The translations under genes were made by a program, and so were the position numbers. The notes under the pieces were generated by a model that was not told the origin of the DNA, did no database searches, and was given only the letters and a program-made list of their open reading frames with translations. Below, piece by piece: positions 5,791-53,230 of a stretch of 64,000 bases of DNA (positions are counted from its first letter, which is position 1; the number at the start of each line of letters is the position of its first letter). This stretch comes from Trypanosoma brucei. Taxonomy: Eukaryota. Location of the stretch: positions 2,112,001 to 2,176,000 of the forward strand of contig CP000070.1 of the NCBI GenBank assembly GCA_000002445.1, in the 5' to 3' direction.

Positions 5791-7137
5791 TCAGATCAAC
5801 GCCATGCGTTCGACTAGGAAAGCTGCAGCACCATAACTCAAAAACATCAAGACGAGAAGGGCGGTTAACGGAATGCCCTTTTGATTCTTCACGGCAGCGA
5901 CGGCGGACGTCGCGGGGGGAATGCGCATTATCACATCCGCTACAGCCGTACGGCGGCACCCCACTGAGCTCTCACCAGGAATTCCGTTCATTGCTTCGGT
6001 GCCAGTGCCTGCTGGTGAGGCGATGTTATTACTACCCCCACCCATCCCCGGATCGGCTTCTGGCGTTTTCATTTGCGAGATACTGGCTGCCTCTTCAGGG
6101 TGGATGCGGGGCCCACTGCGCAAAGCTTTAATGCCAAACTTCAGCGCCTGCAATTCGCCACCTCCGGCGGAGCTGGTGGGACCGGCAGCTGCACCATCAT
6201 TGTTAGTTGCACACGCTGGATCCCGTCGGAGCCGGTCACTTAACTTTCTGTGAATCATAGAGGTTACAAGTCGTGCATTCGGTGGTACAACCACCTGCTC
6301 CTCCTCATGACGTTCACTACTTCGATGGCTACCACTGTTGACGCTACTGGCGGTGCGCTGGACCTCATCACTGCTAATGGCACGGTTGTGTGCCCTGTGA
6401 CTCCTATTCTTGTCACTGTTGTTTCTCACAGCGCTGCCGTAGGCATCAGCCACAGCAGCCCCACTGTTGCAGTGCTTGTTGTCGTTACTAATAGTCATTG
6501 CAGTGGCCGTCGTCGAGGCATTGCTTGTAGCGGTTCCTGAGGCTTCATCACCTCCATCATTATGACTATGGTCGCTGAACCCTTCCCCCCTGCGGCCCTG
6601 CGTCTCATGCAGAGCCCTAACAACACCTCTCGTGTACGCTCGCAGGAACACTGTAGGACCTTGTGTTGCCTTTAGTTTACCTTCCGACACTTGCTCCCAC
6701 AACTCTCGTGCTGCCGTCTCAACGGTATTGGAACCCCTTCTATGAGGTCGTGAGAGTTCCTGAGTTAGGTGCTCGTGTGTTGCGGCGTCGGGCACGACGA
6801 GAAGGTACTCAATTGCAAAGCGGTCGCTATTATCCCTCCGCAGTGACGGTGGTGGCGGCTCTAATGGGTCGTCAGACTGCGGCCGAAGTCCGAAAGTAAT
6901 CGAAACAGCTGGTGGTTGTGGAGGTTTGCGACCGCTGTCATCGCTCACTAAGATGGTTCCATACCGTGGCACGATGTAGAACTTGTGTGGATTAGAGGCC
7001 TTGACCTTGAAAAGGACCACGCTGCGTGGCTGCTGAGCCGAGGCGGTGGCTGGGGCCCGCCACGTAAGAGTAACGATATTGTCCACAGACTCACCATCCG
7101 GAAAGTACAGACCGCTGCAGGACGCCACCAGTGCCAT
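5791..7137 (-). CDS. MSP-domain (VAP/VAMP-associated-protein-like) tail-anchored membrane protein
   Basis: The N-terminal ~125 aa carry MSP-domain signatures (VVLFKVKASNPHKFYIVPRYGTILVSD..., compare VAP KVKTTAPRRYCVRPNSG). A long Ser/Ala-rich disordered middle follows. There is a single C-terminal transmembrane helix (LTALLVLMFLSYGAAAFLV) seven residues from the stop, typical of a tail-anchored VAP. Confidence 0.6.
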   Translation of the reverse strand: MALVASCSGLYFPDGESVDNIVTLTWRAPATASAQQPRSVVLFKVKASNPHKFYIVPRYGTILVSDDSGRKPPQPPAVSITFGLRPQSDDPLEPPPPSLRRDNSDRFAIEYLLVVPDAATHEHLTQELSRPHRRGSNTVETAARELWEQVSEGKLKATQGPTVFLRAYTRGVVRALHETQGRRGEGFSDHSHNDGGDEASGTATSNASTTATAMTISNDNKHCNSGAAVADAYGSAVRNNSDKNRSHRAHNRAISSDEVQRTASSVNSGSHRSSERHEEEQVVVPPNARLVTSMIHRKLSDRLRRDPACATNNDGAAAGPTSSAGGGELQALKFGIKALRSGPRIHPEEAASISQMKTPEADPGMGGGSNNIASPAGTGTEAMNGIPGESSVGCRRTAVADVIMRIPPATSAVAAVKNQKGIPLTALLVLMFLSYGAAAFLVERMALI

Positions 7138-8946: not shown

Positions 8947-9984
8947 TTAAGCTCCGTTGAACCGCATCAACTTTTCCACTTCTTCCTCACGCACCTCATC
9001 AAAGTATGAGTGTTGAAGAGCCTCATAAGCGGTTATACGTTCCCTCGGGTTGTAGCACAGCATGCGCCGCAGTAAATCTACACCGTCGTCGTCCAACGCG
9101 GGAACTGCAGTGCGCAGTGGCTTCGCGGTCCACCGCGGGAAGTTAACGTTGTGGTGGGGTAGCGATGTGACGCCGCGCCAAGTTGCCTCCGTCGGTGTGC
9201 CGAGCAACTGGAATATGGAAAAGAGCTGATTGATGGCGGTATCCCCCGCGAAGAGCGACCTGCGACGGGCAAGTTCAGCAAAGACACACCCCATCGACCA
9301 CACATCCACAGCGGGGAGGTACTGTTTGTCCCCAAGGAGCACCTCGGGGGCACGGTACCACAGCGTCATAACCTCCGTTGTGTATGTCTGCAGGGGCACA
9401 CGGAAGGCACGACCAAGTCCAAAATCGGCAAGTTTCACGACAGACTCCTTGCGGTCAATAAGAATATTGCTTGGCTTAATGTCACGGTGGACGAAGCGGC
9501 GACTGTGGCACTCATGCAAGCCAAGAAGCAGCTGAAACATGATACGACGAAGCTTGCCGCCAACGAAGGCGGTGTTCCGTTGCTTCAGCATCCCTTGCAA
9601 GTCTTGCTCCATGTATTCAAATATGAGCAACAGCTTCGCCTCATGCAGTACCACATCGAGAAGCCGTACCACGTATGGGTGATTCAGTTCGCGTAGCAGT
9701 GATACCTCGCGGACGGCGGTGGAAGGTACGCCGCCGTCGTTTACGATAAGCGGGATCCGCTTCATAGCTACAGTGCGGCCGGTAAAGTTGTCGTGGCACT
9801 TGTACACAATACCGTAGGAACCTTCACCAACCTTCTCTATTCGGCTATACCGGTCCGGGGTGGACGTACCTCGGAGCGGGGCGGGGCGCAGCGAGCGCGG
9901 CACGAAAGAAGCAGGGCCAGCAGAAGGAAGTGGTCGCAGCGAACCATCACATGCCGTCTGTCCTTCCTGCACCTGCACCTGCAT
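8947..9984 (-). CDS. CRK2: CDC2-related protein kinase with a PSTAVRE cyclin-binding motif and a ~45-aa N-terminal extension (CRK2-type)
   Basis: GEGSYGIVYK glycine loop, AMK lysine, PSTAVREVSLLREL (PSTAIRE variant), HRDIKPSNILI catalytic loop, DFG, WYRAPE and the CDK-type C-terminus. The Q/P/S-rich N-terminal extension before the kinase core matches the extension described for trypanosome CRK2. Confidence 0.85.
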   Translation of the reverse strand: MQVQVQEGQTACDGSLRPLPSAGPASFVPRSLRPAPLRGTSTPDRYSRIEKVGEGSYGIVYKCHDNFTGRTVAMKRIPLIVNDGGVPSTAVREVSLLRELNHPYVVRLLDVVLHEAKLLLIFEYMEQDLQGMLKQRNTAFVGGKLRRIMFQLLLGLHECHSRRFVHRDIKPSNILIDRKESVVKLADFGLGRAFRVPLQTYTTEVMTLWYRAPEVLLGDKQYLPAVDVWSMGCVFAELARRRSLFAGDTAINQLFSIFQLLGTPTEATWRGVTSLPHHNVNFPRWTAKPLRTAVPALDDDGVDLLRRMLCYNPRERITAYEALQHSYFDEVREEEVEKLMRFNGA

Positions 9985-10805: not shown

Positions 10806-11084
10806 TCAGTTAACCTGATACGATTGGGGAGCGAGAGTAATTGTTCTGATCTGCTCCCCCCGGATGAAGCGAAGGGATGCCGGTGCCGCCCCCTCGATTG
10901 ACGGCAGGTGCCCCGTAGTGCTCCAATCCTTCAGCATGATGTTGCAATGGTCGTCCACCGCCAGTAGTGTACCAGAAGTTGTCTCTCTATTCACGGTGTG
11001 CACGCGGACGGGGCAGTCCACGCTCTGCAGCAGAAACACGAAGGGATCCATGGCTTCAAACAGGGCGCGAGAAGTTTGCATCAC
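10806..11084 (-). CDS. Sm-like (LSm/Sm family) small RNA-binding protein, 92 aa
   Basis: Sm1 motif (SGTLLAVDDHCNIMLKD) and Sm2 motif (FIRGEQIRTITL) separated by an extended loop, with size typical for Sm/LSm proteins. It may be the LSm3 orthologue, but I cannot confirm this. Confidence 0.7.
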   Translation of the reverse strand: MMQTSRALFEAMDPFVFLLQSVDCPVRVHTVNRETTSGTLLAVDDHCNIMLKDWSTTGHLPSIEGAAPASLRFIRGEQIRTITLAPQSYQVN

Positions 11085-11242: not shown

Positions 11243-11778
11243 CGGAGAAAAATAAGGTAAAAAGATGGGGCAAAACGAGGCTTGCTCAAGACAAGAAGAC
11301 ACAGAGGGAAGCGCGCGTGGACAAATGGAAATGACGAAAGAGGCGACGACACATCTACTCAACTTCGTAAACCTCATCTAGTGCCCTTCATCTGCGGCTT
11401 CATCAAGCAGTAAAAAGAGCACAGTGCACCTTTACGCTGCGCATCGTTCCACCCGGTTAGCACCTGGGAGCGAAGTGCCCCTGCCGGTCCGGCCACAACT
11501 CCTTTTCTAACCTTCTTTCTGCCATTCTTCCTGCTTTCCCTCTTTAAGAGGCTGTTACATGAGGGCTCGACAGGAATCACATCTCGAAAGAAGGCGACGC
11601 AGCGAACACCAAAGCAACAATGGGACAATCCCAACGCATCTCCTTTTTCAGCTTCGTGGAGGATTTGCATGTTCATGAGACTGCTTATGAAAAAAAAAAA
11701 GGAGTAATGACACAACACAGGGGGCAACGCAGGGGAGGGACAAACCCTTCCTCCTTCCCTCACACACACCTATTGCAC

Positions 11779-14700
11779 TTATCGCACTTCGGAAAGTGAC
11801 GCAACCCACTTGGCGGCATCCCCTACCATCTCCTCCAACAGATTTTCAAGAGCATGACCTAACACCAACTGCGTGATTCCTGCACGGCGACTGTCCATGC
11901 CGAGTGTACCGGCACGACTTCCTGCATAGCACGGCGATCCCAGAGACCTTTGAGTCCCAGAATTCCCCAGACCATCTTCTCCACCTACCGCCAAAAGCGA
12001 TGCAGACGCTGAAGATGATAAGGCCCCATTACCGTCGTTACGCTCGAAAAGATTCTCGCGCAACCGCGCCTCACAGTAAAAGTCCTCCGCATTGTTGGTG
12101 CCCTTGCGCACCAGCTCTGTATAATGGTATGCAAGAAATCGAATATCACTGGGTTGTAGCCTCCCAAAGAGGCACTGTGGGGAGACGAGGCCAGCCGACC
12201 GCGACAGAGCCTCCTCTGAGGATAGAAAGGCTTCCTCATACCAAACGAACTCGTCCAGTCGCTGCAACTTCTCCCTTGAGGCCACTGTGATATAGTCGGA
12301 GGCTAGCCTTTCAGCCAAAGCACTGAGGCCCGCACGCCATTCTCCGGACAGCCCCCCCTCCCCCATCGCCGCAGCGGCAACCGAAATAATACTTTGGCTT
12401 AAAGTGCTCTCAATTGTTGAATAGGAAAGCAGACCGGGATGCGCTAAAGCCTCCAATGCCGTCCCCGCTCCCTCTACCAAGTAGTTGATAACAGAATCTA
12501 CCATGAACGCAGTGAACCGCTTCTCACAATTTCCAGCGTGCGCACTATACAGCAAAGAGGGGTCTGAAGGCGTAACCGTACCACTGTGCTCACCTTGCTT
12601 TTCAACCAAACGATTGGCACCACCCTCAGCAATAGACAACTCTACCACTGAATATATAGAAGGTGACTCACTAGAACCACTGATTACGCAATCAACAGAC
12701 GCAACACCAGCACCATTTAATTCGCCGACACAACTAAGCGTACCCTGGGTACCACAGTCGGGGCTTGGCAATGCACAGCTTCCGTACAACGTAGAGCTCC
12801 CGCCATAATAAAACTCAGAAGTTCCGGAAGAACAAACATCGTTATTAATCAGCATAGCAACGGTACTTATTCCGCTCGACAACACGTATTCCGTCACAGC
12901 CTCAGCAGCACCAACACAAGCTTCACCTCCACGAAAAGTATCCAGCAACGACATAGACATCACAGATTCCAACTCACCGCTATAGGCCACATCATCAACG
13001 ACACAACCAAAGCTACAAACGCCACCACAACAAACAGATGTAGCATCTTCGAAGCACTCTGATATCAAATTTACACACAAAGAACGCAAGCAATCAATAA
13101 TAAAAAGCTTATCACCAAACACTGCCGCCCCTTCACCATCAACCCCCAACTGTTCATCCTCTTCAGCCTTGAGACGAGATTCCTCTTCAGCCTTGAAACG
13201 AGCTTCCTCTTCAGCCTTGAGACGAGCTTCCTCTTCAGCCTTGAGACGAGCTTCCTCTTCAGCCTTGAAACGAGCTTCCTCTTCGGCCTTGAGACGAGCT
13301 TCCTCTTCAGCCTTGAAACGAGCTTCCTCTTCAGCCTTGAGACGAGCTTCCTCTTCAGCCTTGAAACGAGCTTCCTCTTCAGCCTTGAGACGAGCTTCCT
13401 CTTCAGCTTCTAGACGGGCGTCTTCCATTGCACGCGCACTGGCAATATGCCGTGAGAAGGCATCATTAAGGCTTTGCCTTATTATGTCGTCAGAGAGGGC
13501 TCTCACACGATCGATAATGTGTTCTTTACCTTCTAAGAGAGTAACAGCCTCTTCTTCAGCCTTGAGACGAGCTTCCTCTTCAGCCTTGAAACGAGCTTCC
13601 TCTTCAGCCTTGAGACGAGCTTCCTCTTCAGCCTTGACACGAGCCTCCTCTTCAGTTTTGAGACGAGCTTCCTCTTCAGCCTTGAAACGAGCTTCCTCTT
13701 CAGCCTTGAGACGAGCTTCCTCTTCAGCTTCTAGACGGGCGTCTTCCATTGCACGCGCACTGGCAATATGCCGTGAGAAGGCATCATTAAGGCTTTGCCT
13801 TATTATGTCGTCAGAGAGGGCTCTCACAAGATCGATAATGTGTTCTTTACCTTCTAAGAGAGTAACAGCCTCTTCTTCAGCCTTGACACGAGCCTCCTCT
13901 TCAGCCTTGAGACGAGCTTCCTCTTCAGCCTTGAAACGAGCTTCCTCTTCAGCCTTGAGACGAGCTTCCTCTTCAGCCTTGAAACGAGCTTCCTCTTCAG
14001 CCTTGAGACGAGCTTCCTCTTCAGCCTTGAAACGAGCTTCCTCTTCAGCCTTGACACGAGCTTCCTCTTCAGCCTTGAAACGAGCTTCCTCTTCAGCCTT
14101 GAAACGAGCTTCCTCTTCAGCTTCTAGACGGGCGTCTTCCATTGCACGCGCACTGGCAATATGCCGTGAGAAGGCATCATTAAGGCTTTGCCTTATTATG
14201 TCGTCAGAGAGGGCTCTCACACGATCGATAATGTGTTCTTTACCTTCTAAGAGAGTAACAGCCCCTTCTTCAGCCTTGACACGAGCTTCCTCTTCAGCCT
14301 TGAAACGAGCTTCCTCTTCAGCCTTGACACGAGCTTCCTCTTCAGCCTTGAAACGAGCTTCCTCTTCAGCCTTGAGACGAGCCTCCTCTTCAGCCTTGAG
14401 ACGAGCTTCCTCTTCAGCCTTGAGACGAGCTTCCTCTTCAGCCTTGACACGAGCTTCCTCTTCAGCTTCTAGACGGGCGTCTTCCATTGCACGCGCACTG
14501 GCAATATGCCGTGAGAAGGCATCATTAAGGCTTTGCCTTATTATGTCGTCAGAGAGGGCTCTCACACGATCGATAATGTGTTCTTTACCTTCTAAGAGAG
14601 TAACAGCCTCTTCTTCAGCCTTGACACGAGCCTCCTCTTCAGCCTTGAAACGAGCTTCCTCTTCAGCCTTGAAACGAGCTTCCTCTTCAGCCTTGAAACG

Positions 14701-17700
14701 AGCTTCCTCTTCAGCCTTGAGACGAGCTTCCTCTTCAGCCTTGAGACGAGCTTCCTCTTCAGCCTTGAGACGAGCTTCCTCTTCAGCCTTGAAACGAGCC
14801 TCTTCTTCAGCCTTGACACGAGCCTCCTCTTCAGTTTTGAGACGAGCTTCCTCTTCAGCCTTGAAACGAGCTTCCTCTTCAGCTTCTAGACGGGCGTCTT
14901 CCATTGCACGCGCACTGGCAATATGCCGTGAGAAGGCATCATTAAGGCTTTGCCTTATTATGTCGTCAGAGAGGGCTCTCACACGATCGATAATGTGTTC
15001 TTTACCTTCTAAGAGAGTAACAGCCCCTTCTTCAGCCTTGACACGAGCTTCCTCTTCAGCCTTGAAACGAGCTTCCTCTTCAGCCTTGACACGAGCTTCC
15101 TCTTCAGCCTTGAAACGAGCTTCCTCTTCAGCCTTGAGACGAGCTTCCTCTTCAGCCTTGAGACGAGCTTCCTCTTCAGCCTTGAAACGAGCTTCCTCTT
15201 CAGCTTCTAGACGGGCGTCTTCCATTGCACGCGCACTGGCAATATGCCGTGAGAAGGCATCATTAAGGCTTTGCCTTATTATGTCGTCAGAGAGGGCTCT
15301 CACACGATCGATAATGTGTTCTTTACCTTCTAAGAGAGTAACAGCCTCTTCTTCAGCCTTGACACGAGCTTCCTCTTCAGCCTTGAAACGAGCTTCCTCT
15401 TCAGCCTTGAGACGAGCTTCCTCTTCAGCCTTGAGACGAGATTCCTCTTCAGCCTTGAGACGAGCTTCCTCTTCAGCCTTGAAACGAGCTTCCTCTTCAG
15501 CCTTGAGACGAGCTTCCTCTTCAGCCTTGAGACGAGCTTCCTCTTCAGCTTCTAGACGGGCGTCTTCCATTGCACGCGCACTGGCAATATGCCGTGAGAA
15601 GGCATCATTAAGGCTTTGCCTTATTATGTCGTCAGAGAGGGCTCTCACACGATCGATAATGTGTTGTTTACCTTCTAAGAGAGTAACAGCCTCTTCTTCG
15701 GCCTTGAGACGAGCTTCCTCTTCAGCCTTGAGACGAGCTTCCTCTTCAGCCTTGAAACGAGCTTCCTCTTCAGCCTTGAAACGAGCTTCCTCTTCAGCCT
15801 TGAGACGAGATTCCTCTTCAGCCTTGAGACGAGCTTCCTCTTCAGCCTTGAGACGAGCTTCCTCTTCAGCCTTGAGACGAGCTTCCTCTTCAGCCTTGAG
15901 ACGAGATTCCTCTTCAGCCTTGAGACGAGCTTCCTCTTCAGCCTTGAGACGAGCTTCCTCTTCAGCCTTGAGACGAGCTTCCTCTTCAGCTTCTAGACGG
16001 GCGTCTTCCATTGCACGCGCACTGGCAATATGCCGTGAGAAGGCATCATTAAGGCTTTGCCTTATTATGTCGTCAGAGAGGGCTCTCACACGATCGATAA
16101 TGTGTTCTTTACCTTCTAAGAGAGTAACAGCCTCTTCTTCAGCCTTGACACGAGCTTCCTCTTCAGCTTTGATTCGTGCCTCTTCTTCAGCTTTGATTCG
16201 TGCCTCTTCTTCAGCTTTGATTCGTGCCTCTTCTTCAGCTTTGATTCGTGCCTCTTCTTCAGCTTTGATTCGTGCCTCTTCTTCAGCTCTGATTCGTGCC
16301 TCTTCTTCAGCTTTGATTCGTGCCTCTTCTTCAGCTCTGAGTCTCGCCTCTTCTTCAGCTCTGAGTCTCGCCTCTTCTTCAGCTTTGATTCGTGCCTCTT
16401 CTTCAGCTTTGATTCGTGCCTCTTCTTCAGCTCTGATTCGTGCCTCTTCTTCAGCTCTGATTCGTGCCTCTTCTTCAGCTCTGAGTCTCGCCTCTTCTTC
16501 AGCTCTGACTCTCGCCTCTTCTTCAGCTTTGAGTCTCGCCTCTTCTTCAGCTCTGATTCGTGCCTCTTCTTCAGCTTTGATTCGTGCCTCTTCTTCAGCT
16601 CTGATTCGTGCCTCTTCTTCAGCTCTGATTCGTGCCTCTTCTTCAGCTCTGAGTCTCGCCTCTTCTTCAGCTCTGACTCTCGCCTCTTCTTCAGCTCTGA
16701 GTCTCGCCTCTTCTTCAGTTCTGAGTCTCGCCTCTTCTTCAGCTTTGATTCGTGCCTCTTCTTCAGCTTTGATTCGTGCCTCTTCTTCAGCTCTGAGTCT
16801 CGCCTCTTCTTCAGCTCTGACTCTCGCCTCTTCTTCAGCTCTGAGTCTCGCCTCTTCTTCAGCTCTGAGTCTCGCCTCTTCTTCAGCTCTGAGTCTCGCC
16901 TCTTCTTCAGCTTTGATTCGTGCCTCTTCTTCAGCTCTGATTCGTGCCTCTTCTTCAGCTCTGATTCGTGCCTCTTCTTCAGCTTTGATTCGTGCCTCTT
17001 CTTCAGCTCTGATTCGTGCCTCTTCTTCAGCTCTGATTCGTGCCTCTTCTTCAGCTCTGAGTCTCGCCTCTTCTTCGAGAGATGGAGCGTGTTGAGAGGC
17101 GTGAATCGTAATTTCCTTTTGTTTTGTGTATGCGTGCTGTGCTGTGGGGTAGTTTGTTTCAATCCGTGAGGTAGTGTGAGTTTGTTTTCGTTCGATTTCC
17201 GTTCGATCGCTAAAATTTTGGCTTTGTGTTTTAGAGCTGTAACTTTTTTCTTCAAAATGTTTTGTTGGTTCGTGTGTTTCTTTTGCTTGTATAGCGAGGG
17301 TTTGTGTTGCTTTGTTTTCTGTTGGTGCCGGGTTTGTGTTTTGTATACTTTGAGTATGTCTTGTGATTGTCGTTCTTTCAGCAGCTGGTTGTCGCGTTAT
17401 GAGCGAGATGGTGTTGAAAGCAGACGGAGCTTCTGTATTGATATTGTTGTGGTTGTTACTTTTCTTGTAGTGTTTGTGTGCTTGTTCATCGTACTTGTTG
17501 TGCCGCTGCTCGTGGATTACTTTTTTCTGTGCGTCTTGTATTATACTTGATGAAAAGCAGTGACTTGTCTCTAGGTTATTACCAATCCCTGTACTTCGAG
17601 GTGGGCACCATGGGTCTGTGAATAGTTTGTTGCTTTGCTGTGACAACTGCACCGACTCTCTTGCTTTGTCTGCTTGTTGCAGCCCGTGGGGACCACTTAC

Positions 17701-18372
17701 TTTTCCTGCTGATGTTGGTTGGTGGTGCAGATGTGCGCTCACATGTTGTGCTGATAGCAAGACTAGTATTTTTTCCTCTCGGAAGGAGGCTGCAATGATA
17801 AGACGCTTCTTCTCGTACTTGTGAACTATCTCGCGGCGGGTGTGTGCTTCAGCTAAGACGACTGCGAACATCGCGGATGAGTGTTTTCGTGTCTCATAAT
17901 CGTCGGAAAGCAGTGATGTTGGAGGCCTTGTGACAGAATCCCCCCTTTTTTGGTATTCCTTCGAGGACCGAGTACCCGCTATGGGGTGCTGTTCTGACAC
18001 AAAACCTGGACCTAGTTGACATCCAGTGTATGCCCGCAGTGTCGGTTGTGTGGTCTCCGTTTGGACGTCATGGCTGCTACTCCGATGGGGCTGTTGAGCG
18101 GTCGTGGTTTTGGTGTCCCGCTTCCTCTTTGAACTGGATATTGGTTCTTCAGCCGCAGCGGCACATGTCCTATCGTGGTTTCCAAGGAACGCTTTCTGCG
18201 CCTCCCTTAATCTATGAATCTCTTCTTTTAGTCCATTAAGCTCCACACGGCTTCCTCCTTCTTTTTTGAGGCGCCTAAACTCTTCTATGAGCCACCCAGT
18301 CCGCTGTATATCTTCCAAGACCGCCAACGCATTAATGCGCACGACCGCCTTATCGCGGTGGGGTGGTGGCAT
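11779..18372 (-). CDS. Giant (~2197 aa) hyper-repetitive acidic protein. It has an N-terminal low-complexity region, ~39 tandem AEEEAR[ILV][KR] octads, eight higher-order units (39-aa unique module plus variable numbers of AEEEAR[LFV]K octads) and a C-terminal ~450-aa Cys-rich non-repetitive domain.
   Basis: 6.6-kb uninterrupted ORF co-oriented with the flanking genes. The repeats are perfect at the nucleotide level (24-nt unit gctgaagaggaagctcgtctcaag and variants). The ORF continues ~1.3 kb beyond the array on each side, which argues that the minus frame is the real one. A purine-rich plus-strand patch (pyrimidine tract in sense) sits ~100 nt 5' of the first ATG. The exact N-terminus is uncertain. 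Confidence 0.75.
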   Translation of the reverse strand: MPPPHRDKAVVRINALAVLEDIQRTGWLIEEFRRLKKEGGSRVELNGLKEEIHRLREAQKAFLGNHDRTCAAAAEEPISSSKRKRDTKTTTAQQPHRSSSHDVQTETTQPTLRAYTGCQLGPGFVSEQHPIAGTRSSKEYQKRGDSVTRPPTSLLSDDYETRKHSSAMFAVVLAEAHTRREIVHKYEKKRLIIAASFREEKILVLLSAQHVSAHLHHQPTSAGKVSGPHGLQQADKARESVQLSQQSNKLFTDPWCPPRSTGIGNNLETSHCFSSSIIQDAQKKVIHEQRHNKYDEQAHKHYKKSNNHNNINTEAPSAFNTISLITRQPAAERTTITRHTQSIQNTNPAPTENKATQTLAIQAKETHEPTKHFEEKSYSSKTQSQNFSDRTEIERKQTHTTSRIETNYPTAQHAYTKQKEITIHASQHAPSLEEEARLRAEEEARIRAEEEARIRAEEEARIKAEEEARIRAEEEARIRAEEEARIKAEEEARLRAEEEARLRAEEEARLRAEEEARVRAEEEARLRAEEEARIKAEEEARIKAEEEARLRTEEEARLRAEEEARVRAEEEARLRAEEEARIRAEEEARIRAEEEARIKAEEEARIRAEEEARLKAEEEARVRAEEEARLRAEEEARIRAEEEARIRAEEEARIKAEEEARIKAEEEARLRAEEEARLRAEEEARIKAEEEARIRAEEEARIKAEEEARIKAEEEARIKAEEEARIKAEEEARIKAEEEARVKAEEEAVTLLEGKEHIIDRVRALSDDIIRQSLNDAFSRHIASARAMEDARLEAEEEARLKAEEEARLKAEEEARLKAEEESRLKAEEEARLKAEEEARLKAEEEARLKAEEESRLKAEEEARFKAEEEARFKAEEEARLKAEEEARLKAEEEAVTLLEGKQHIIDRVRALSDDIIRQSLNDAFSRHIASARAMEDARLEAEEEARLKAEEEARLKAEEEARFKAEEEARLKAEEESRLKAEEEARLKAEEEARFKAEEEARVKAEEEAVTLLEGKEHIIDRVRALSDDIIRQSLNDAFSRHIASARAMEDARLEAEEEARFKAEEEARLKAEEEARLKAEEEARFKAEEEARVKAEEEARFKAEEEARVKAEEGAVTLLEGKEHIIDRVRALSDDIIRQSLNDAFSRHIASARAMEDARLEAEEEARFKAEEEARLKTEEEARVKAEEEARFKAEEEARLKAEEEARLKAEEEARLKAEEEARFKAEEEARFKAEEEARFKAEEEARVKAEEEAVTLLEGKEHIIDRVRALSDDIIRQSLNDAFSRHIASARAMEDARLEAEEEARVKAEEEARLKAEEEARLKAEEEARLKAEEEARFKAEEEARVKAEEEARFKAEEEARVKAEEGAVTLLEGKEHIIDRVRALSDDIIRQSLNDAFSRHIASARAMEDARLEAEEEARFKAEEEARFKAEEEARVKAEEEARFKAEEEARLKAEEEARFKAEEEARLKAEEEARFKAEEEARLKAEEEARVKAEEEAVTLLEGKEHIIDLVRALSDDIIRQSLNDAFSRHIASARAMEDARLEAEEEARLKAEEEARFKAEEEARLKTEEEARVKAEEEARLKAEEEARFKAEEEARLKAEEEAVTLLEGKEHIIDRVRALSDDIIRQSLNDAFSRHIASARAMEDARLEAEEEARLKAEEEARFKAEEEARLKAEEEARFKAEEEARLKAEEEARFKAEEEARLKAEEEARLKAEEEARFKAEEESRLKAEEDEQLGVDGEGAAVFGDKLFIIDCLRSLCVNLISECFEDATSVCCGGVCSFGCVVDDVAYSGELESVMSMSLLDTFRGGEACVGAAEAVTEYVLSSGISTVAMLINNDVCSSGTSEFYYGGSSTLYGSCALPSPDCGTQGTLSCVGELNGAGVASVDCVISGSSESPSIYSVVELSIAEGGANRLVEKQGEHSGTVTPSDPSLLYSAHAGNCEKRFTAFMVDSVINYLVEGAGTALEALAHPGLLSYSTIESTLSQSIISVAAAAMGEGGLSGEWRAGLSALAERLASDYITVASREKLQRLDEFVWYEEAFLSSEEALSRSAGLVSPQCLFGRLQPSDIRFLAYHYTELVRKGTNNAEDFYCEARLRENLFERNDGNGALSSSASASLLAVGGEDGLGNSGTQRSLGSPCYAGSRAGTLGMDSRRAGITQLVLGHALENLLEEMVGDAAKWVASLSEVR
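13140..17090. repeat. ~3.95-kb coding tandem-repeat array with a 24-nt unit, in two sequence families and hierarchical organisation
   Basis: Block 16140-17090 holds ~39 units of the gcctcttcttcagc[tc]t[tc]ga[tg]t[c]... family. Blocks 13165-16140 use the cttgagacgagcttcctcttcagc family, interrupted eight times (near 13410, 13730, 14120, 14465, 14885, 15205, 15545, 15985) by an identical ~120-nt unique module. Confidence 0.9.
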
Positions 18373-19550: not shown

Positions 19551-20558
19551 TTACTTCTTGACAACAACAATACCCTTTGTCCCTCCGTGAACAAAACATT
19601 CGTCCCACACGTCTGGCATCTTCTCCAAAGAAGGCGCCACGACCGTCGGGTACTTGAACCCCACAGAAGACAGTTGCTGCAAAACAACCTCCAGTTGTGT
19701 CTGCCGCTCTTCATATGAAAGTGACGCTAGATATGATGGAAGAAGGAACCCCTCCATTGTTACCTCGTTAAAGATTATGTTTGACCCGGAGATCATCAGT
19801 CCCACACCGCTTTGTGCACCGTAAGACACTGCGTGACCCCCCTTCCCAAGAAGCCCGAGAAACGTATCGAAGTGCCGGCCACCAATGGCGTTGAGGTACA
19901 GTGCTGCAGCGGAACCACCCAGTGCTTGACGCATCGCTCGGGATCCCTTTCCATTGTACTCGAATACCTCGCTGCCATATTCGGCATGGCGTTGTTTTGC
20001 CTTGTCGAACCGCTCACCCGGGGTACTGGCCGTCAGAACTCGGAAACCGAGGAGTTTACCCAAAGCTGCCACGGCAAGGGATGTAGCACTGCTACCGCCG
20101 TTCTGCACGATGACTTGTCCCTTACGTAAAGATGTAAAACCATTGACGAGGCGATGTGCAGTTATGTAGTTAGAAGCGTTCACCGCAAGTGGAATGTATT
20201 TGGAATCGATTTTATGTACGGAGTTGCAAGGCACGGCAACTCGCGTTGCCCATAACCCATTCAGCGGCGCTACCCAAACTGTGTCCCCTTCCTTTATAAC
20301 ACTGGAGCCGTTGTTGGCGACCACTACACCAACACCCTCAGAGCCACCTACCCTTGGGAAGGAAGGGAGTTGCAGCCGACGTCGACCCAGCACACTGCCA
20401 TTCACCACCGCCGCGTCTACACGGTGAAGCGGTGCTTGTAACACATCAACTACTACTTCGTTCCCTTTTGGAACAATTTCCATGGTCTCGTACTTCAAGA
20501 CATGGGCGATCGGTCCACACCGAGTATACAGCCACGCCTTCGAAGACAGCCTCGACAT
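19551..20558 (-). CDS. Medium-chain dehydrogenase/reductase (MDR) family oxidoreductase, trans-2-enoyl-CoA reductase / quinone-oxidoreductase-like, probably mitochondrial
   Basis: 335 aa. GroES-like N-terminal domain followed by a Rossmann segment with a glycine-rich nucleotide-binding motif (VIVQNGGSSATSLAVAALGKLLGF). Overall length and order match ETR1/MECR-type enoyl reductases. The basic/hydroxylated N-terminus is presequence-like. Confidence 0.6.
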   Translation of the reverse strand: MSRLSSKAWLYTRCGPIAHVLKYETMEIVPKGNEVVVDVLQAPLHRVDAAVVNGSVLGRRRLQLPSFPRVGGSEGVGVVVANNGSSVIKEGDTVWVAPLNGLWATRVAVPCNSVHKIDSKYIPLAVNASNYITAHRLVNGFTSLRKGQVIVQNGGSSATSLAVAALGKLLGFRVLTASTPGERFDKAKQRHAEYGSEVFEYNGKGSRAMRQALGGSAAALYLNAIGGRHFDTFLGLLGKGGHAVSYGAQSGVGLMISGSNIIFNEVTMEGFLLPSYLASLSYEERQTQLEVVLQQLSSVGFKYPTVVAPSLEKMPDVWDECFVHGGTKGIVVVKK

Positions 20559-21006: not shown

Positions 21007-22761
21007 CTACACTGCCCGCTTACAAGAGTAGAGTAGGTTTTTCAGTGCTTTCACATCCTTCTCGCTCTTGATGGCATTCATTTTCGACTGGTAATGCTGC
21101 AGAAACAGGTGGGTATGTTGTTTCAACATTTCTTCAAGCTCCCCGTGCAAGATTGGACTATTCAAAGTGAAGAAGCGGATCAGGTAGTTCAGCTCCTGTA
21201 CATACATGTAGAAGAACTTATTCTTCGCAGTACCGTACATGATTCCCAGATCCCTGTGGACAAGCAGGTACTCGTAGAACTTTACGTACTGAACCTTCAC
21301 GTCGTCCAAGTAACCATTCAGACACGCGTACAGAGACACAATTGCATTCATGAAATACGAGGGTTGTTTCTGGTTGAACAGCGCGACGAATCGGGCACCG
21401 CGGATCATGGGGATCGTTTGTACCTGCTGGCCGCCCACCGAGTCGGCGGCGAGCTTGCGGTACTCCGCAAGAATCCCCTTCAGCTTTCCGGCAACTCCTT
21501 TCATCGCCGCGTTCTGCGCGGAGGAGCCCACACGTGACACAGATAAACCGATGTTCACTGCAGGACGCTGGCCACCAGTAAACAGTTTCGTATCGAGGTA
21601 GATTTGACCGTCAGTAATGGAAATTACATTCGTCACAATATACGCAGTCACGTCGTTAGACAGCGTCTCCACAATGGGAAGCGCTGTCACGGAGCCACCA
21701 CCCTTTCCAGGGGAAAGCATAGCCGCGCGTTCCAGGAGCCGTGAATGCAGGTAGAAGACATCACCCGGATATGCCTCACGGCCCGGTGGACGACGAAGGA
21801 GCAGCGAAATCTGACGGTATGCGACAGCCTGTTTAGAGAGATCATCATACACGCAGAGACAGTGGCGACCACGGTTCATGAAGTACTCGCCCATCGTGAC
21901 GCCAGCGTACGGAGCCAGGTACTGGAGACCAGCAGGTTCTGCAGCCGTGGCAGCCATTACAGTTGTGTACCGCAGTGCACCGTATGACTGCAGAAGGCGA
22001 TGAATGCGCGCGACGTTCGAGCACCGTTGCCCAATCGAGACGTAAATGGAAATGACCGCATTCTTGGATAAAATCTGTTGGTTGATACGCACCTGGTTGA
22101 TAATGGTCGAGACAGCGATGGAGGTCTTGCCCGTCTGGCGGTCGCCCACAATTAATTCACGTTGACCACGGCCAATCGGAATCATGGTGTCGACAGCTTT
22201 GAAACCGGTTAACAGATTATAGTTCACAGGCGAGCGGGACACGATATTGGGTGCACCAGTGTCTACTTTACCCAACGTGCTGTCCAGCAGGCGGCGACTG
22301 CGGGTAACGAGCCCCACCGGAACCTCGTGGCCGAGTGGGTTCACGACCTTCCCCAGCACACCGGCTCCCACAGGAATGTGCAGTAGCTGACCTGTTGCCA
22401 TTACCTTCTGACCAGACTGCACTTCCGTTATATTGTCCATCAGAATGATACCGATACGGCCATCTTTCTCCAGGTTGAATACCAATCCAGCGGCAAATGT
22501 TGTGGGGCTCACCTGAATCTGAATGATGGTGTTGTACGCCACACCGGGATTCCCAGGCGCGGGGATTAGAGTGGCAATGGTGCCATCGATCGAGTGAACA
22601 TAGCCAATCATCTCAGTTGTTTTAAAGAATGACTTCTGAGCAGAAGATGTGCTGCTTGTGGTGCTGGCACCTGCCGGTGCCGTTGCTGCGCTCGCTAGGG
22701 GGCAGGCCAGGGCACAGCGTGACGCCAACCCGGAGGCAAACTTGGAACCAAAGCGACGCAT
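21007..22761 (-). CDS. Mitochondrial F1-ATP synthase alpha subunit, tandem copy 1
   Basis: 584 aa. Walker A GDRQTGKT, the ATP-synthase alpha signature region and an N-terminal presequence MRRFGSKFASGLASR. The six-frame ORF runs 31 codons further upstream (to 22854), but the second copy fixes the start at the MRRFGSKF methionine. Confidence 0.9.
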   Translation of the reverse strand: MRRFGSKFASGLASRCALACPLASAATAPAGASTTSSTSSAQKSFFKTTEMIGYVHSIDGTIATLIPAPGNPGVAYNTIIQIQVSPTTFAAGLVFNLEKDGRIGIILMDNITEVQSGQKVMATGQLLHIPVGAGVLGKVVNPLGHEVPVGLVTRSRRLLDSTLGKVDTGAPNIVSRSPVNYNLLTGFKAVDTMIPIGRGQRELIVGDRQTGKTSIAVSTIINQVRINQQILSKNAVISIYVSIGQRCSNVARIHRLLQSYGALRYTTVMAATAAEPAGLQYLAPYAGVTMGEYFMNRGRHCLCVYDDLSKQAVAYRQISLLLRRPPGREAYPGDVFYLHSRLLERAAMLSPGKGGGSVTALPIVETLSNDVTAYIVTNVISITDGQIYLDTKLFTGGQRPAVNIGLSVSRVGSSAQNAAMKGVAGKLKGILAEYRKLAADSVGGQQVQTIPMIRGARFVALFNQKQPSYFMNAIVSLYACLNGYLDDVKVQYVKFYEYLLVHRDLGIMYGTAKNKFFYMYVQELNYLIRFFTLNSPILHGELEEMLKQHTHLFLQHYQSKMNAIKSEKDVKALKNLLYSCKRAV

Positions 22762-23096
22762 CTTCTCTTGAATCACTAGTGAGGGGGAAAAAAAAGCAAG
22801 CGTGCCACCAATAGCTTCATTAGTAAATAGAGTACCATAGCGTAGTGAAAACAAAACGACTCCGCATATTTGTTTACAGCCGCAACCACCAACGCCGCAC
22901 TAAAATAATGAACCGTCAACCTCTCAGTGACAACAAAAACACGCACACACGCACACAAACACACATAACCAAGTAAGAACAAAAAAACAAAATTCCCTAT
23001 ACCATCGCCACTTGTTCCTTTCGTTATACCTAAAAGTGAAAATAAAAGTGCTACCGGAGGCTAACCTCATTCACTAACAAAGACCTGCTAGCTAAA

Positions 23097-49241: not shown

Positions 49242-49256
49242 GGGGGGGGGGGGGGG
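49242..49256. repeat. G15 homopolymer inside the strand-switch region
   Basis: Read directly from the sequence (cacgacac-G15-ccgtatcc). Confidence 0.9.
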
Positions 49257-52200: not shown

Positions 52201-53230
52201 TGGGGCGCCGTCAGATCTATTTCCCTGCGCGGGTTTTGTTGGAGAGGCCCAAAGAACTTAAAGTCTTCACTGGGCGGTGCTGGTTGCGAGGCCGCAGTCC
52301 AGTTACTGACGTGCTGGGGTCTTGACGAATCGCACCTGGAACCGATAAATCGGTAGTTTAGTTGCAGTGAATTGCCTGTACATGGTTTCTACTTGAATAA
52401 TTGCGAGTCGTCGGCCGCAGCAGAGATTTAGGGGCTATTGTGCTTGAAGAGGGTTAGATTGTATACATGGGGCGTTTGGAACAGTAACCTTTAAGGGCGG
52501 AAATGAGGCTGTTTTTCTGTTTTCGTTTTTTTTCCCGTAAATTTCATATTATCGAAAATCTCTGGTGTGACATCGGCACCGACAAGTCTCTAGGGGTCCA
52601 ATCCAACGGAGACACGTATGAACTGCAAAGTAACGGAACAAGTGATGAATAAAAGGGAAGTCTGTGCAACCTCAGTGTTTGAATGATTTGCCCCGTACCG
52701 GGGGAGTGCCTACCTGAGCAGGTCTAACGAACTCTGGGTACATCCTGTTTGCGTTACTGTTTTCTTTGAGTGTATAGATGTTGAACACCACCCCTACGTA
52801 CGCACCCCTACCTTTCGTCAATCCTGCGGATTGTATCAGGGGTGAACGGCAGGCAAAAGGTGCGCTTTAGTGACATTTGTGCACTTCAACATTCTGTCAG
52901 GGACTGCGTTTTCTTTCCTTTGCATGCGGAAGCCGTGAAGTGGAAGTGGACTCGGTACTACGATAAGGCTAAGCTTGAAGGGCTCACCAAGACTCACTTC
53001 CTTCCCCCGCTATCGGAAAGTACTCGTTGGCGTGGCGCATCAAGCAGGTGTTCACTTTCTTACCAAAAGTAGTAGTAAAATGCGGGTGGTGGCTGAGGGT
53101 GTTGTCAAATTTGAAGTACCAACCCGATGAACCGTTCTAGGGTGCAAACACAAGCTAAGCACTTCGATTTAGGAATTTCATTTGCACTTCACTTCAATTA
53201 CTGTTACCGATTGGTCTGTATGCGCATAGC

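What the first reader, a model, noticed from the sequence alone, without database searches (positions are those of the whole stretch)
11779..18372. Giant acidic protein built from a hierarchical ER/K octad array, probably a single-alpha-helix spacer attached to a Cys-rich globular domain
About half of this 2197-aa ORF is made of AEEEAR[LIFV][KR] octads. The strict i/i+4 spacing of Glu and Arg/Lys is the hallmark of stable single alpha helices (ER/K SAH domains), not heptad coiled coils. With ~140 octads at ~1.5 A per residue this could be a rigid rod on the order of 150 nm. It is interrupted eight times by an identical 39-aa module (EEEAVTLLEGKEHIIDRVRALSDDIIRQSLNDAFSRHIASARAMEDARLEAEEEAR), giving evenly spaced candidate docking sites. 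The array is capped by a ~450-aa Cys-rich non-repetitive C-terminal domain that I cannot assign to any family. The two octad families (..R[IL]RA at the N-terminal side, ..R[LF]KA in the modules) suggest two separate amplification events. Such a protein would be a strong cytoskeletal, flagellar or molecular-ruler candidate, and the repeat would be a dominant B-cell epitope.
Basis: partly seen in the sequence, partly recalled or inferred. Interest (0 to 1): 0.7.

Follow-up and report, generated by a model that had tools for sequence, protein, structure and literature searches.

The report
Known basal-body protein TbBBP248, helical spacer
The giant repetitive ORF is the already named Trypanosoma brucei basal-body protein TbBBP248 (Tb927.7.7400); its charged 8-residue repeats most likely form long single alpha-helical spacer segments, broken up by nine copies of an old amphipathic helix, between two conserved end domains, but this structure has not been tested by experiment.

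Summary
The ORF (window 11779-18372, minus strand, 2197 aa, 247,993 Da, pI 4.9) and its repeats are real. There are 111 octads, not about 140. There are eight 51-aa modules, four identical and four with one substitution. They lie 107-147 aa apart, so they are not evenly spaced.

The gene is not new. Published endogenous-tagging primers for TbBBP248 (Tb927.7.7400) match the ORF's 3' end and its downstream flank with no mismatches. TbBBP248 is a trypanosome-specific basal-body protein. It was found by TbPOC11, TbBBP46 and TbPLK BioID and localised by C-terminal HA tagging and 3D-SIM.

Orthologues occur across trypanosomatids under the label "kinetoplast-associated protein-like". They share two N-terminal motifs, a charged helical middle, recurring amphipathic modules and a C-terminal helical domain. 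The repeat unit differs between species, and most lack bulky hydrophobic residues.

Charge-pair density, the lack of any hydrophobic seam, and AlphaFold helices favour single alpha-helix segments over a coiled coil. This is inference only. The Cys-rich part of the C-region is poorly conserved and predicted disordered. The conserved domain is a Cys-poor helical bundle with no known relative.

Verdict: a known protein with a plausible, unpublished structural reading. Interest is moderate to low.

The parts
11779..18372 (-). Complete CDS of TbBBP248 / Tb927.7.7400 (2197 aa plus stop codon)
   Evidence: ORF list and translation. Mass is 247,993 Da, matching 248.0 kDa in Table S1 of PMC5210500.
11782..11869 (-). 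Site of the published TbBBP248-FWD endogenous C-terminal tagging primer (last 88 nt of the CDS)
   Evidence: Exact match, 0 mismatches. Primer taken from the supplement of PMC5210500.
11694..11781 (+). Site of the published TbBBP248-REV tagging primer (stop codon plus the start of the 3' UTR)
   Evidence: Exact match, 0 mismatches.
17080..18372 (-). N-terminal non-repetitive region, aa 1-431, basic (pI 9.6). Its second half is polar and low in complexity.
   Evidence: No Pfam or PDB sequence match.
18193..18321 (-). Conserved N-terminal motif N1 (aa about 18-60, LEDIQRTGWLIEEFRRLKKEGGSR...LREAQ)
   Evidence: Aligned with T. cruzi, Leishmaniinae-type and other homologues.
17758..17877 (-). Conserved N-terminal motif N2 (aa about 166-205, FAVVLAEAHTRREIVHKYEKKRL...)
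   Evidence: The most conserved N-terminal block across the family.
16144..17079 (-). Octad block 1, aa 432-743: one partial and 38 complete AEEEAR[ILV][RK] octads without interruption (312 aa, about 47 nm if helical)
13168..16143 (-). Super-repeat array, aa 744-1735: 8 units, each a 51-aa module followed by 7-12 AEEEAR[LFV]K octads
15991..16143 (-). Module 1 (aa 744-794)
15550..15702 (-). Module 2 (aa 891-941; E to Q variant)
15205..15357 (-). Module 3 (aa 1006-1056)
14884..15036 (-). Module 4 (aa 1113-1163; AEEG variant)
14467..14619 (-). Module 5 (aa 1252-1302)
14122..14274 (-). Module 6 (aa 1367-1417; AEEG variant)
13729..13881 (-). Module 7 (aa 1498-1548; R to L variant)
13408..13560 (-). 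Module 8 (aa 1605-1655)
13018..13119 (-). Ninth, diverged module copy (aa about 1752-1785, FGDKLFIIDCLRSLCVNLISECFEDATS)
   Evidence: Local alignment to the module. Module HMM score 46 bits. T. cruzi, T. rangeli and T. theileri have a module at the equivalent position.
12538..13167 (-). Ser/Gly/Val/Cys-rich, poorly conserved linker (aa 1736-1945; 14 of the 17 Cys)
   Evidence: pLDDT below 50 in AF2. Poorly aligned between species. Composition.
11782..12537 (-). Conserved C-terminal all-helical domain (aa about 1946-2197), ending in the invariant RRAGxTQLVLGHALxNLLE helix
   Evidence: Alignments. AF2 core pLDDT 60-84. 24 family representatives found with its profile. No specific PDB fold or sequence relative.

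Best explanation
The ORF encodes TbBBP248 (Tb927.7.7400), a trypanosomatid-specific structural protein of the flagellar basal body. My confidence in that identification is about 0.97.

Proposed mechanism (inferred, about 0.5): the protein is a long, segmented, semi-flexible tether or scaffold.
- The conserved N-terminal motifs and the conserved C-terminal helical bundle are the attachment ends. The C-terminus sits in patches around the mature basal body.
- The 1,304-residue middle is alpha-helical.
- The A-E-E-E-A-R-hydrophobic-K/R octads form salt-bridge-stabilised single alpha-helices of the ER/K (SAH) type. They serve as spacers of about 47 nm (block 1) and 8-14 nm (between modules).
- Each spacer ends in a short Gly/Ser-containing hinge followed by an amphipathic helix of about 20 residues. 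This is the module. It is the ancient, conserved repeated element of the family and most likely a protein-protein contact site, either for docking a partner or for self-association.
- In the T. brucei lineage, both the spacer and the module-plus-spacer unit were recently amplified. This lengthened the protein and multiplied the contact sites, much as happened in the basal-body spacer protein p197.
For: Shown:
- Both published TbBBP248 tagging primers match the ORF end and its flank exactly.
- The mass is 247,993 Da, against 248.0 kDa in the published table.
- Gene order fits the Tb927.7.73xx-74xx numbering: CRK2-like kinase, LSm, this ORF, Zn-dehydrogenase-like oxidoreductase (Tb927.7.7410), then two ATP synthase alpha genes.
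- Published data: the protein was found by TbPOC11 and TbBBP46 BioID and given a basal-body localisation with a C-terminal 3xHA tag. [quoted passage not shown]
- It is a TbPLK BioID hit scored 'BB' (PMC4551316).
- The family architecture is conserved and the T. cruzi locus is syntenic. The C-domain profile finds 24 representatives, and all those with a source name are trypanosomatids.
- N-terminal motifs are conserved.
- The module HMM finds 9 copies in T. brucei and 2-5 in other full-length homologues, all above the best reversed-sequence score.

Supporting the single-helix reading:
- Residues are 62% charged, with 0.49 attractive i/i+4 and 0.25 attractive i/i+3 pairs per residue and no repulsive pairs.
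- There is no hydrophobic face at periodicities of 3.5-3.75 residues.
- Orthologous repeat units differ in length: T. cruzi AAEEEAAKQK, T. grayi AEEEAEAKRR, T. theileri A(E)3-5ARRK. They contain 5% or fewer bulky hydrophobic residues. Composition is conserved, not a seam.
- AF2 predicts two continuous helices over 361 residues (mean pLDDT 82). The only break is at AVTLLEG of one module.
- De novo AEEEKKK and AEEEKRK heptad polypeptides are experimentally single alpha-helices, and such helices are 'commonly misidentified as coiled coils' (PMC5347031).

Precedent: p197 has conserved ends and a helical spacer that is near-identically repeated only in T. brucei (PMC9546609).
Against: - There is no biophysical measurement. 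A single-chain AF2 model cannot tell a single helix from a coiled coil.
- Every T. brucei octad has one L, I, F or V and two Ala. F is present in 25 of the 73 later octads. This is more hydrophobic than classical ER/K helices and could support lateral association.
- Arg-rich designed SAH sequences aggregated (PMC5347031), and block 1 is Arg-rich.
- Characterised SAHs are 40 to about 200 residues long (PMC5347031), so 312 uninterrupted residues is an extrapolation.
- Only the C-terminus has been localised, so the extended-tether geometry is untested.
- The localisation in the source paper is inconsistent. Table S1 says 'Between pBB and mBB', while the text says a ring at the mBB cartwheel.
- No partner of the module is known. 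The module matches no known docking motif.
- BBP248 was not among the proteins studied by individual RNAi in PMC5210500.
- The repeat number in this assembly may be collapsed, as happened for p197.
Confidence: 0.55

Rival explanations
1. The central region is a two-stranded or multi-stranded coiled coil, as in the published annotation, so that BBP248 is a dimeric fibrous protein like many centriolar proteins.
For: Table S1 of PMC5210500 lists '9 x CC' for TbBBP248. Most basal-body proteins in that study carry predicted coiled coils. Each octad has one bulky hydrophobic residue and two Ala. The module itself is amphipathic, with 27% hydrophobic residues, and could pair locally.
Against: An 8-residue period places the hydrophobic residue 80 degrees further round the helix in each repeat. 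The resultant of hydrophobic positions is at most 0.04 for 7/2, 18/5, 11/3 and 15/4 periodicities, against 0.64 for GCN4. Orthologues replace the unit with 7- to 10-residue repeats that have virtually no bulky hydrophobic residues. Coiled-coil predictors are known to miscall SAHs (PMC5347031).
Confidence: 0.15
2. The modules bind each other rather than a separate partner. Association could be within one molecule, folding the chain back into a compact bundle with charged helical loops. It could also be between molecules, cross-linking BBP248 into the patchy ring seen by 3D-SIM.
For: There are nine near-identical amphipathic helices in one chain. AF2 breaks the helix at a module start. pLDDT is highest over the two flanking modules, which lie about 130 residues on either side of the break. 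This is compatible with a hairpin, although I could not inspect the coordinates. The 3D-SIM signal is patches in a ring.
Against: The AF2 result came from a symmetrically chosen fragment with no alignment depth, and pTM was 0.24. Other species have only 2-5 diverged modules, which fits heterotypic docking as well as it fits self-association. No experimental data exist.
Confidence: 0.2
3. The protein is part of the basal body-kinetoplast connection (tripartite attachment complex region). This would explain why orthologues are labelled 'kinetoplast(-DNA)-associated protein'.
For: Orthologues in T. cruzi, T. grayi, T. rangeli, T. conorhini, Leishmania and Leptomonas carry that label. A large T. 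cruzi 'KAP' associated with the kinetoplast was cloned in 1990 (Gonzalez et al., PMID 1694571, cited). The architecture resembles p197. The cartwheel end of the mature basal body faces the kinetoplast.
Against: I could not read the 1990 paper, so the link between that KAP and this family is unverified. The label is also applied to unrelated genes: KAP6 (PMC2700280) and the 660-aa LinKAP. The searchable literature never names Tb927.7.7400 as a TAC component. The protein is acidic and has no DNA-binding domain.
Confidence: 0.15
4. The repeat array has no specific mechanical role. It would be a tolerated, fast-evolving low-complexity expansion, possibly mis-assembled in copy number, in a protein whose function lies only in its terminal domains.
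For: The repeats are almost identical at the DNA level (96-98%), which indicates recent amplification or gene conversion. The unit sequence is not conserved between species. Repeat arrays in this genome are known to be mis-assembled (p197).
Against: A long, charged, Pro/Gly-free helical middle of comparable size is retained in every full-length homologue, about 1,600-2,100 aa. Octad variation is confined to position 7 (always hydrophobic) and to K versus R at position 8. The charge register is kept, which argues for constraint on helix-forming character.
Confidence: 0.1

Closest known systems
TbBBP248 (Tb927.7.7400), T. brucei basal body protein of 248 kDa (Dang et al. 2017, PMC5210500)
   Same: It is the same gene. 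Both tagging primers match exactly, the mass is the same, and the chromosomal neighbourhood is the same.
   Different: Nothing differs at the sequence level. The publication annotates it only as '9 x CC; 12 x Cornifin' and gives no structural or functional analysis.
p197 (Tb927.10.15750), the exclusion-zone filament spacer of the tripartite attachment complex (PMC9546609)
   Same: It is a giant basal-body-associated protein with conserved N- and C-terminal interaction regions. Its central alpha-helical region is made of near-identical tandem repeats in T. brucei but is non-repetitive in other kinetoplastids. It acts as a flexible single-molecule spacer, and its repeat number is under-counted in the reference assembly.
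   Different: There is no sequence relationship. p197 repeats are 175 aa, not 8 aa. p197 has no interspersed conserved module. BBP248 has no demonstrated link to the mitochondrial membrane.
ER/K single alpha-helix (SAH) domains: myosin-6, -7a and -10, INCENP, and the designed AEEEKKK / AEEEKRK polypeptides (PMC5347031, PMC4183817, PMC4571873)
   Same: The repeats begin AEEE and are followed by basic residues. There is a dense i/i+4 and i/i+3 Glu-Arg/Lys network and no hydrophobic seam. The role is a semi-flexible linker between functional domains. Such regions are often miscalled as coiled coils.
   Different: The period is 8, not 7. Each unit has two Ala and one bulky hydrophobic residue, a net charge of -1, and only two basic residues. 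The total length (312 aa uninterrupted, 1,304 aa segmented) far exceeds the 40 to about 200 residues of characterised SAHs. The monomeric state is untested.
Trypanosomatid 'kinetoplast-associated protein-like' / 'kinetoplast DNA-associated protein' gene models (T. cruzi ECC02_006116, T. grayi, T. rangeli, Leishmania martiniquensis LSCM1_07729, Leptomonas pyrrhocoris)
   Same: These are orthologues. The C-terminal domain is conserved at 48-56% identity within Trypanosoma. They share the N-terminal motifs and the modules, and the T. cruzi locus is syntenic.
   Different: The repeat unit differs or is absent, and they have fewer modules (2-5). Many gene models are truncated at the repeats. The 'kinetoplast' label has not been verified for this family.

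Membership tests
TbBBP248 / Tb927.7.7400 locus | The sequence is targeted by the published endogenous-tagging primers | tested here: met
   FWD primer matches 11782-11869 (-) and REV primer matches 11694-11781 (+), both with 0 mismatches. Primers are from the supplement of PMC5210500.
TbBBP248 / Tb927.7.7400 locus | Predicted mass of 248.0 kDa | tested here: met
   247,993 Da.
TbBBP248 / Tb927.7.7400 locus | Chromosome 7 neighbourhood: CRK2 7360, LSm3 7380, oxidoreductase 7410 | tested here: met
   Kinase at 8947-9984, LSM ORF at 10806-11084, ADH-like ORF at 19551-20558, all on the minus strand. Gene IDs come from the literature.
Trypanosomatid BBP248 / 'KAP-like' orthologue family | Conserved C-terminal helical domain ending in RRAGxTQLVLGHALxNLLE | tested here: met
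   Alignments and profile searches.
Trypanosomatid BBP248 / 'KAP-like' orthologue family | N-terminal motifs N1 and N2 (FAVVLAEAHxRRE...) | tested here: met
   The T. grayi N-terminal fragment was recovered.
Trypanosomatid BBP248 / 'KAP-like' orthologue family | Synteny with the T. cruzi locus | tested here: met
   Locus L001 runs ATP synthase alpha x2, ADH-like, this gene, kinase.
ER/K single alpha-helix (SAH) domains | Rich in Glu, Arg and Lys, with dense oppositely charged i/i+3 and i/i+4 pairs | tested here: met
   62% charged residues, 0.49 i/i+4 and 0.25 i/i+3 attractive pairs per residue, no repulsive pairs.
ER/K single alpha-helix (SAH) domains | No hydrophobic seam | tested here: met
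   Hydrophobic resultant at most 0.04 (block 1) for periodicities of 3.5-3.75. Including Ala it is at most 0.012.
ER/K single alpha-helix (SAH) domains | Monomeric, highly helical in isolation, with weakly cooperative melting | not testable with these tools
   This needs CD, AUC or SEC-MALS. AF2 predicts a helix but says nothing about oligomeric state.
Canonical coiled coil | Heptad or hendecad periodic hydrophobic core positions forming a continuous seam | tested here: not met
   Orthologous repeats lack bulky hydrophobic residues.
Cornifin / SPRR (the label in the published table) | Pfam PF02389 match at or above the gathering score | tested here: not met
   24.9 bits against a cut-off of 34.8. 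This is a compositional match.
AKAP-type RII/D-D docking helices (considered for the module) | Match to an RII-binding profile or to the AKAP amphipathic consensus | tested here: not met
   No Pfam hit at E of 10 or below. A consensus regex written from memory gave no hit in the T. brucei module, whereas 24% of shuffles gave at least one.
kDNA-condensing KAPs (KAP1-4, KAP6) | Small, basic, DNA-binding (histone-H1-like or HMG-box) proteins | tested here: not met
   The protein is 248 kDa with pI 4.9 and has no DNA-binding Pfam domain. The same label is used for KAP6 in PMC2700280.

The most novel reading that the evidence does not exclude
BBP248 would be the longest natural single alpha-helix protein described. 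It would be a segmented chain of about 1,300 residues with up to about 200 nm of contour. ER/K-type spacers of defined length would separate nine copies of an ancient amphipathic docking helix. The protein would act as a multivalent 'beads-on-a-rod' scaffold that sets spacing and stoichiometry of a partner around or between the mature and pro-basal bodies. The spacer length would have been tuned in the T. brucei lineage by recent octad amplification. An octad (period-8) SAH with a regular hydrophobic position would also be a new SAH sequence class.
Probability: 0.3. Interest if true: 0.6.

Novelty: already known. Interest (0 to 1): 0.33.

Why it matters
The gene is a named and localised basal-body component, so finding it is not a discovery. 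Its function and structure are still unknown, however. The published annotation ('9 x CC; 12 x Cornifin') probably misdescribes it.

If the octads are single alpha-helices and the modules are docking sites, BBP248 would be a second single-molecule spacer at the trypanosome basal body, after p197. It would also be a natural test case for how the length of SAH segments sets distances in a centriole-associated structure.

The model is directly testable with double tagging and expansion microscopy, and with simple biophysics on short fragments.

A practical point follows too. Gene models for this family are truncated or gapped at the repeats in most assemblies, and the 'kinetoplast-associated' label is unreliable.

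Tried and rejected
- Literature search for the repeat peptide strings found no papers.
- Pfam scans of the N-region, C-region and modules gave nothing above threshold. Cornifin and DUF2345 were sub-threshold compositional hits.
- PDB sequence searches with the C-domain profile and the N-region found nothing.
- Foldseek with the repeat/module model found no matches.
- The afdb50 library was unavailable.
- I rejected the AKAP/RII-docking idea for the module.
- The Chagas serology motif SP[YW]xI[FY] is attributed to a 'kinetoplast DNA-associated protein' (PMC7093460). It is absent from the T. cruzi orthologue locus and from BBP248, so it gives no support for antigenicity.
- LinKAP (LINF_270007500, 660 aa, chromosome 27; PMC12108087) shares the label, but its size and locus differ. 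I did not equate it with this family.
- The 1990 T. cruzi KAP paper could not be read.
- The profile search with the N-terminal alignment found only the T. grayi N-terminal fragment.
- My first module HMM, dominated by T. brucei copies, under-detected distant copies. A seed balanced across lineages was needed. That seed was hand-picked from the same sequences, so the copy counts are indicative, not independent.

Full report
**1. The observation**

The minus strand of window 11779-18372 carries one uninterrupted ORF of 2197 codons. Parsing the translation gives this layout:
- aa 1-431: a non-repetitive, basic N-terminal region (pI 9.6).
- aa 432-743: one partial and 38 complete octads of the form A-E-E-E-A-R-[I/L/V]-[R/K].
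- aa 744-1735: eight super-units. Each is a 51-aa module (AEEEAVTLLEGKEHIIDRVRALSDDIIRQSLNDAFSRHIASARAMEDARLE) followed by 7-12 octads of the form A-E-E-E-A-R-[L/F/V]-K.
- aa 1736-2197: a 462-aa non-repetitive C-region.

There are 111 complete octads, not about 140. The modules are 51 aa with a 42-aa unique core. Four are identical and four carry one substitution. Start-to-start spacing is 107-147 aa, so they are not even.

The two octad families differ consistently at synonymous sites. Block 1 uses GAA-GAA-GAG-GCA/GCG-CGA/AGA, and the later blocks use GAA-GAG-GAA-GCT-CGT. They share only one 24-mer.

Tandem Repeats Finder reports the 24-nt period plus higher-order periods of 321-417 nt. Super-units are 96-98% identical at the DNA level. 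The repeat is real, hierarchical and recent.

**2. Identity**

The neighbouring ORFs encode a CDK-like kinase, an LSm protein, a zinc-dehydrogenase-like oxidoreductase, two tandem ATP synthase alpha subunits, an NGP1-type GTPase, a receptor-type adenylate cyclase and a trans-sialidase. This is a trypanosome gene set.

The C-region is 100% identical to a truncated Trypanosoma equiperdum model. The literature places Tb927.7.7360 (CRK2), 7380 (LSm3) and 7410 (putative oxidoreductase) around Tb927.7.7400. Tb927.7.7400 is named BBP248.

Table S1 of Dang et al. 2017 (PMC5210500) lists TbBBP248 as Tb927.7.7400, 248.0 kDa. The ORF's computed mass is 247,993 Da.

The decisive test used the two long endogenous-tagging primers printed in that paper's supplement. 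They match the window with zero mismatches. One covers the last 88 nt of the ORF (11782-11869, minus strand). The other covers the 88 nt immediately downstream, including the stop codon (11694-11781). The ORF is TbBBP248.

**3. What is published about it**

- TbBBP248 was recovered by BioID with TbPOC11 and TbBBP46 as baits. It was tagged at its C-terminus with 3xHA at the endogenous locus and localised to the basal body.
[quoted passage not shown] Table S1 instead says 'Between pBB and mBB'. This inconsistency is unresolved.
- It is also a TbPLK BioID hit scored as basal body (PMC4551316).
- In a genome-scale bloodstream-form RNAi screen, its knockdown was over-represented in the >4C (endoreduplication/cytokinesis-defect) fraction (PMC9464253).
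- It was not among the proteins analysed individually by RNAi.
- Its published domain annotation is '9 x CC; 12 x Cornifin'. My Pfam scan shows that the Cornifin match is below threshold (24.9 against 34.8 bits).

**4. The family**

A profile of the conserved C-terminal 240 aa or so finds orthologues in T. cruzi, T. c. marinkellei, T. conorhini and T. grayi. An exhaustive search of 1.84 billion representatives finds 24 proteins. Those that carry names come from T. rangeli, T. theileri, Leishmania martiniquensis, Leptomonas pyrrhocoris, Phytomonas and Strigomonas.

The T. cruzi locus is syntenic. Although an assembly gap and frame breaks interrupt it, it encodes a homologous N-terminal region, AAEEEAAKQK decads, module-like insertions and the C-domain.

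Full-length Leishmaniinae-type homologues (about 2,100 aa) have the same ends. Their middle is long, rich in Ala, Glu, Arg and Gln, poor in Pro and Gly, and not a perfect tandem array.

Two N-terminal motifs are conserved: N1...LxxIxxTxxLxxxFRxLKxxG..., and N2, FAVVLAEAHxRREIxHKWERR...

A module HMM seeded from several lineages detects 9 copies in T. brucei and 2-5 in the other full-length proteins. All score above the best reversed-sequence control. One copy always sits just after the charged region, at the start of the C-region. The amphipathic core is roughly h-x-x-h-x-x-x-h-h-x-[D/E]-[C/W]-h-x-x-A-A, where h is a hydrophobic residue. It is therefore an ancient feature of the family. What is specific to T. 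brucei is its recent eight-fold amplification together with the octads.

The label 'kinetoplast(-DNA)-associated protein(-like)' attached to the orthologues is unreliable. It is also used for KAP6 (PMC2700280) and for the 660-aa LinKAP on a different chromosome (PMC12108087).

**5. Single helix or coiled coil?**

- In the octads 62% of residues are charged. There are 0.49 attractive i/i+4 and 0.25 attractive i/i+3 Glu-Arg/Lys pairs per residue, and no like-charge pairs at those spacings.
- An 8-residue period advances 800 degrees per repeat, so the single bulky hydrophobic residue rotates 80 degrees per octad. The vector resultant of hydrophobic positions is at most 0.04 (block 1) for 7/2, 18/5, 11/3 and 15/4 periodicities, against 0.64 for the GCN4 zipper. 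Adding Ala does not create a face.
- Across species the unit changes length: 8 in T. brucei, 10 in T. cruzi and T. grayi, 7-10 in T. theileri, and about 9 in T. rangeli. It loses the hydrophobic position altogether, with 5% or fewer bulky hydrophobic residues. It stays about 40% acidic, about 30% basic, about 20-25% Ala and free of Pro and Gly. Selection has kept helix-forming, salt-bridging composition, not a packing seam.
- AF2 on 361 residues spanning three modules gives two continuous helices (residues 2-174 and 182-360; mean pLDDT 82). The only break is at the AVTLLEG start of the middle module.
- Designed AEEEKKK and AEEEKRK polypeptides are experimentally stable single alpha-helices, and natural SAHs are 'commonly misidentified as coiled coils' (PMC5347031).

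I conclude that the SAH reading is the better-supported one, at roughly 0.65 against 0.15 for a coiled coil. It remains an inference. The T. brucei octad is more hydrophobic than classical ER/K motifs, block 1 is Arg-rich (Arg-rich designs aggregated), and 312 uninterrupted residues exceeds the 40-200 residues of characterised SAHs.

**6. Dimensions**

At 0.15 nm per residue:
- Block 1 is about 47 nm.
- The inter-module spacers are 8.4-14.4 nm.
- The whole 1,304-residue middle is about 196 nm of contour.

With the published persistence length of about 15 nm (PMC5347031), a worm-like chain of that contour has an r.m.s. end-to-end distance of about 74 nm. The protein is better described as a semi-flexible segmented tether than as a rigid 150-nm rod. 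The Gly/Ser-containing starts of the modules are likely hinges.

**7. The C-region**

AF2 with the orthologue alignment gives pLDDT below 50 for the first 215 residues or so. This stretch is rich in Ser, Gly and Val and holds 14 of the 17 Cys. It aligns poorly between species.

'Cys-rich globular domain' is therefore not the right description. The region is a disordered linker followed by a family-specific helical bundle, which is presumably the basal-body anchor because the tag at this end localises there.

**8. Mechanism proposed**

Shown:
- The identity of the gene.
- Basal-body localisation of the C-terminus.
- Proximity to TbPOC11, TbBBP46 and TbPLK.
- The conserved tripartite architecture.
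- The recent amplification.

Inferred:
- The two conserved ends attach to different basal-body-associated structures.
- The middle is a chain of single alpha-helical spacers.
- The amphipathic modules are contact sites, either heterotypic docking or self-association.

The nearest functional precedent is p197. It has conserved ends, an alpha-helical middle that is repetitive only in T. brucei, and a length that sets an inter-structure distance (PMC9546609). That paper also warns that repeat numbers are collapsed in reference assemblies: 3.5 against about 26 repeats for p197. The 111 octads and 8 modules seen here may therefore be a minimum.

**9. Novelty and verdict**

The protein is already known, named and localised.

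Three things appear to be unpublished, within the limits of the library I could search:
- The SAH interpretation.
- The recognition of the amphipathic module as an ancient repeated element of the family.
- The domain map: N1/N2 motifs, spacer-module array, disordered linker and C-terminal bundle.

These are hypotheses of moderate interest that can be tested by simple experiments. They are not a new kind of system.

Noticed in passing
window 13169-17095 (+): A 1308-aa ORF lies antisense to the repeat array (LRRASSSALKRASSSA...; 34% Ser). It is a by-product of the stop-free reverse complement of the octad codons, not evidence of a gene.
   Followed up: partly
window 21007-22854 and 23097-24851 (-): There are two tandem copies of the ATP synthase alpha subunit. 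The same tandem pair occurs in the syntenic T. cruzi locus L001.
   Followed up: partly
window about 47100-53100: All large ORFs to the left are on the minus strand and those to the right are on the plus strand. GC skew changes sign near 48 kb. This looks like a divergent strand-switch region between two polycistronic units. No tRNA genes occur anywhere in the window.
   Followed up: no
window 35506-39123 (-) and 44578-47073 (-): A receptor-type adenylate cyclase (GRESAG4-like) and a trans-sialidase-family gene lie in the same transcription unit as BBP248.
   Followed up: no
window 10806-11084 (-): A 92-aa ORF has an LSM domain (E 1.5e-09). It matches the position of LSm3 (Tb927.7.7380) and of the LSM gene next to the T. 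grayi orthologue (L002 2674-2922).
   Followed up: yes
PMC5210500, Table S1 versus main text: [quoted passage not shown]
   Followed up: no
L001 6700-8400 (T. cruzi GCA_013358655.1, JABDHM010000045.1): The T. cruzi orthologue is interrupted by a run of N and by frame breaks inside its repeat array. Only the last 402 aa are annotated as a gene. The T. equiperdum (393 aa), T. grayi (split over two contigs), T. rangeli and T. theileri models are also truncated at the repeats.
   Followed up: partly
window 5791-7137 (-): A 448-aa ORF has a weak, sub-threshold match to the MSP (major sperm protein) domain (21.2 against 25.9 bits).
   Followed up: no
Leptomonas P0019, aa about 560-720: The non-tandem charged region of the Leptomonas homologue contains isolated AARIKAEE, AARLKAEEE and AARLEAEAEE strings that resemble the T. 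brucei octad. The octad may have been amplified from an ancestral local sequence.
   Followed up: no
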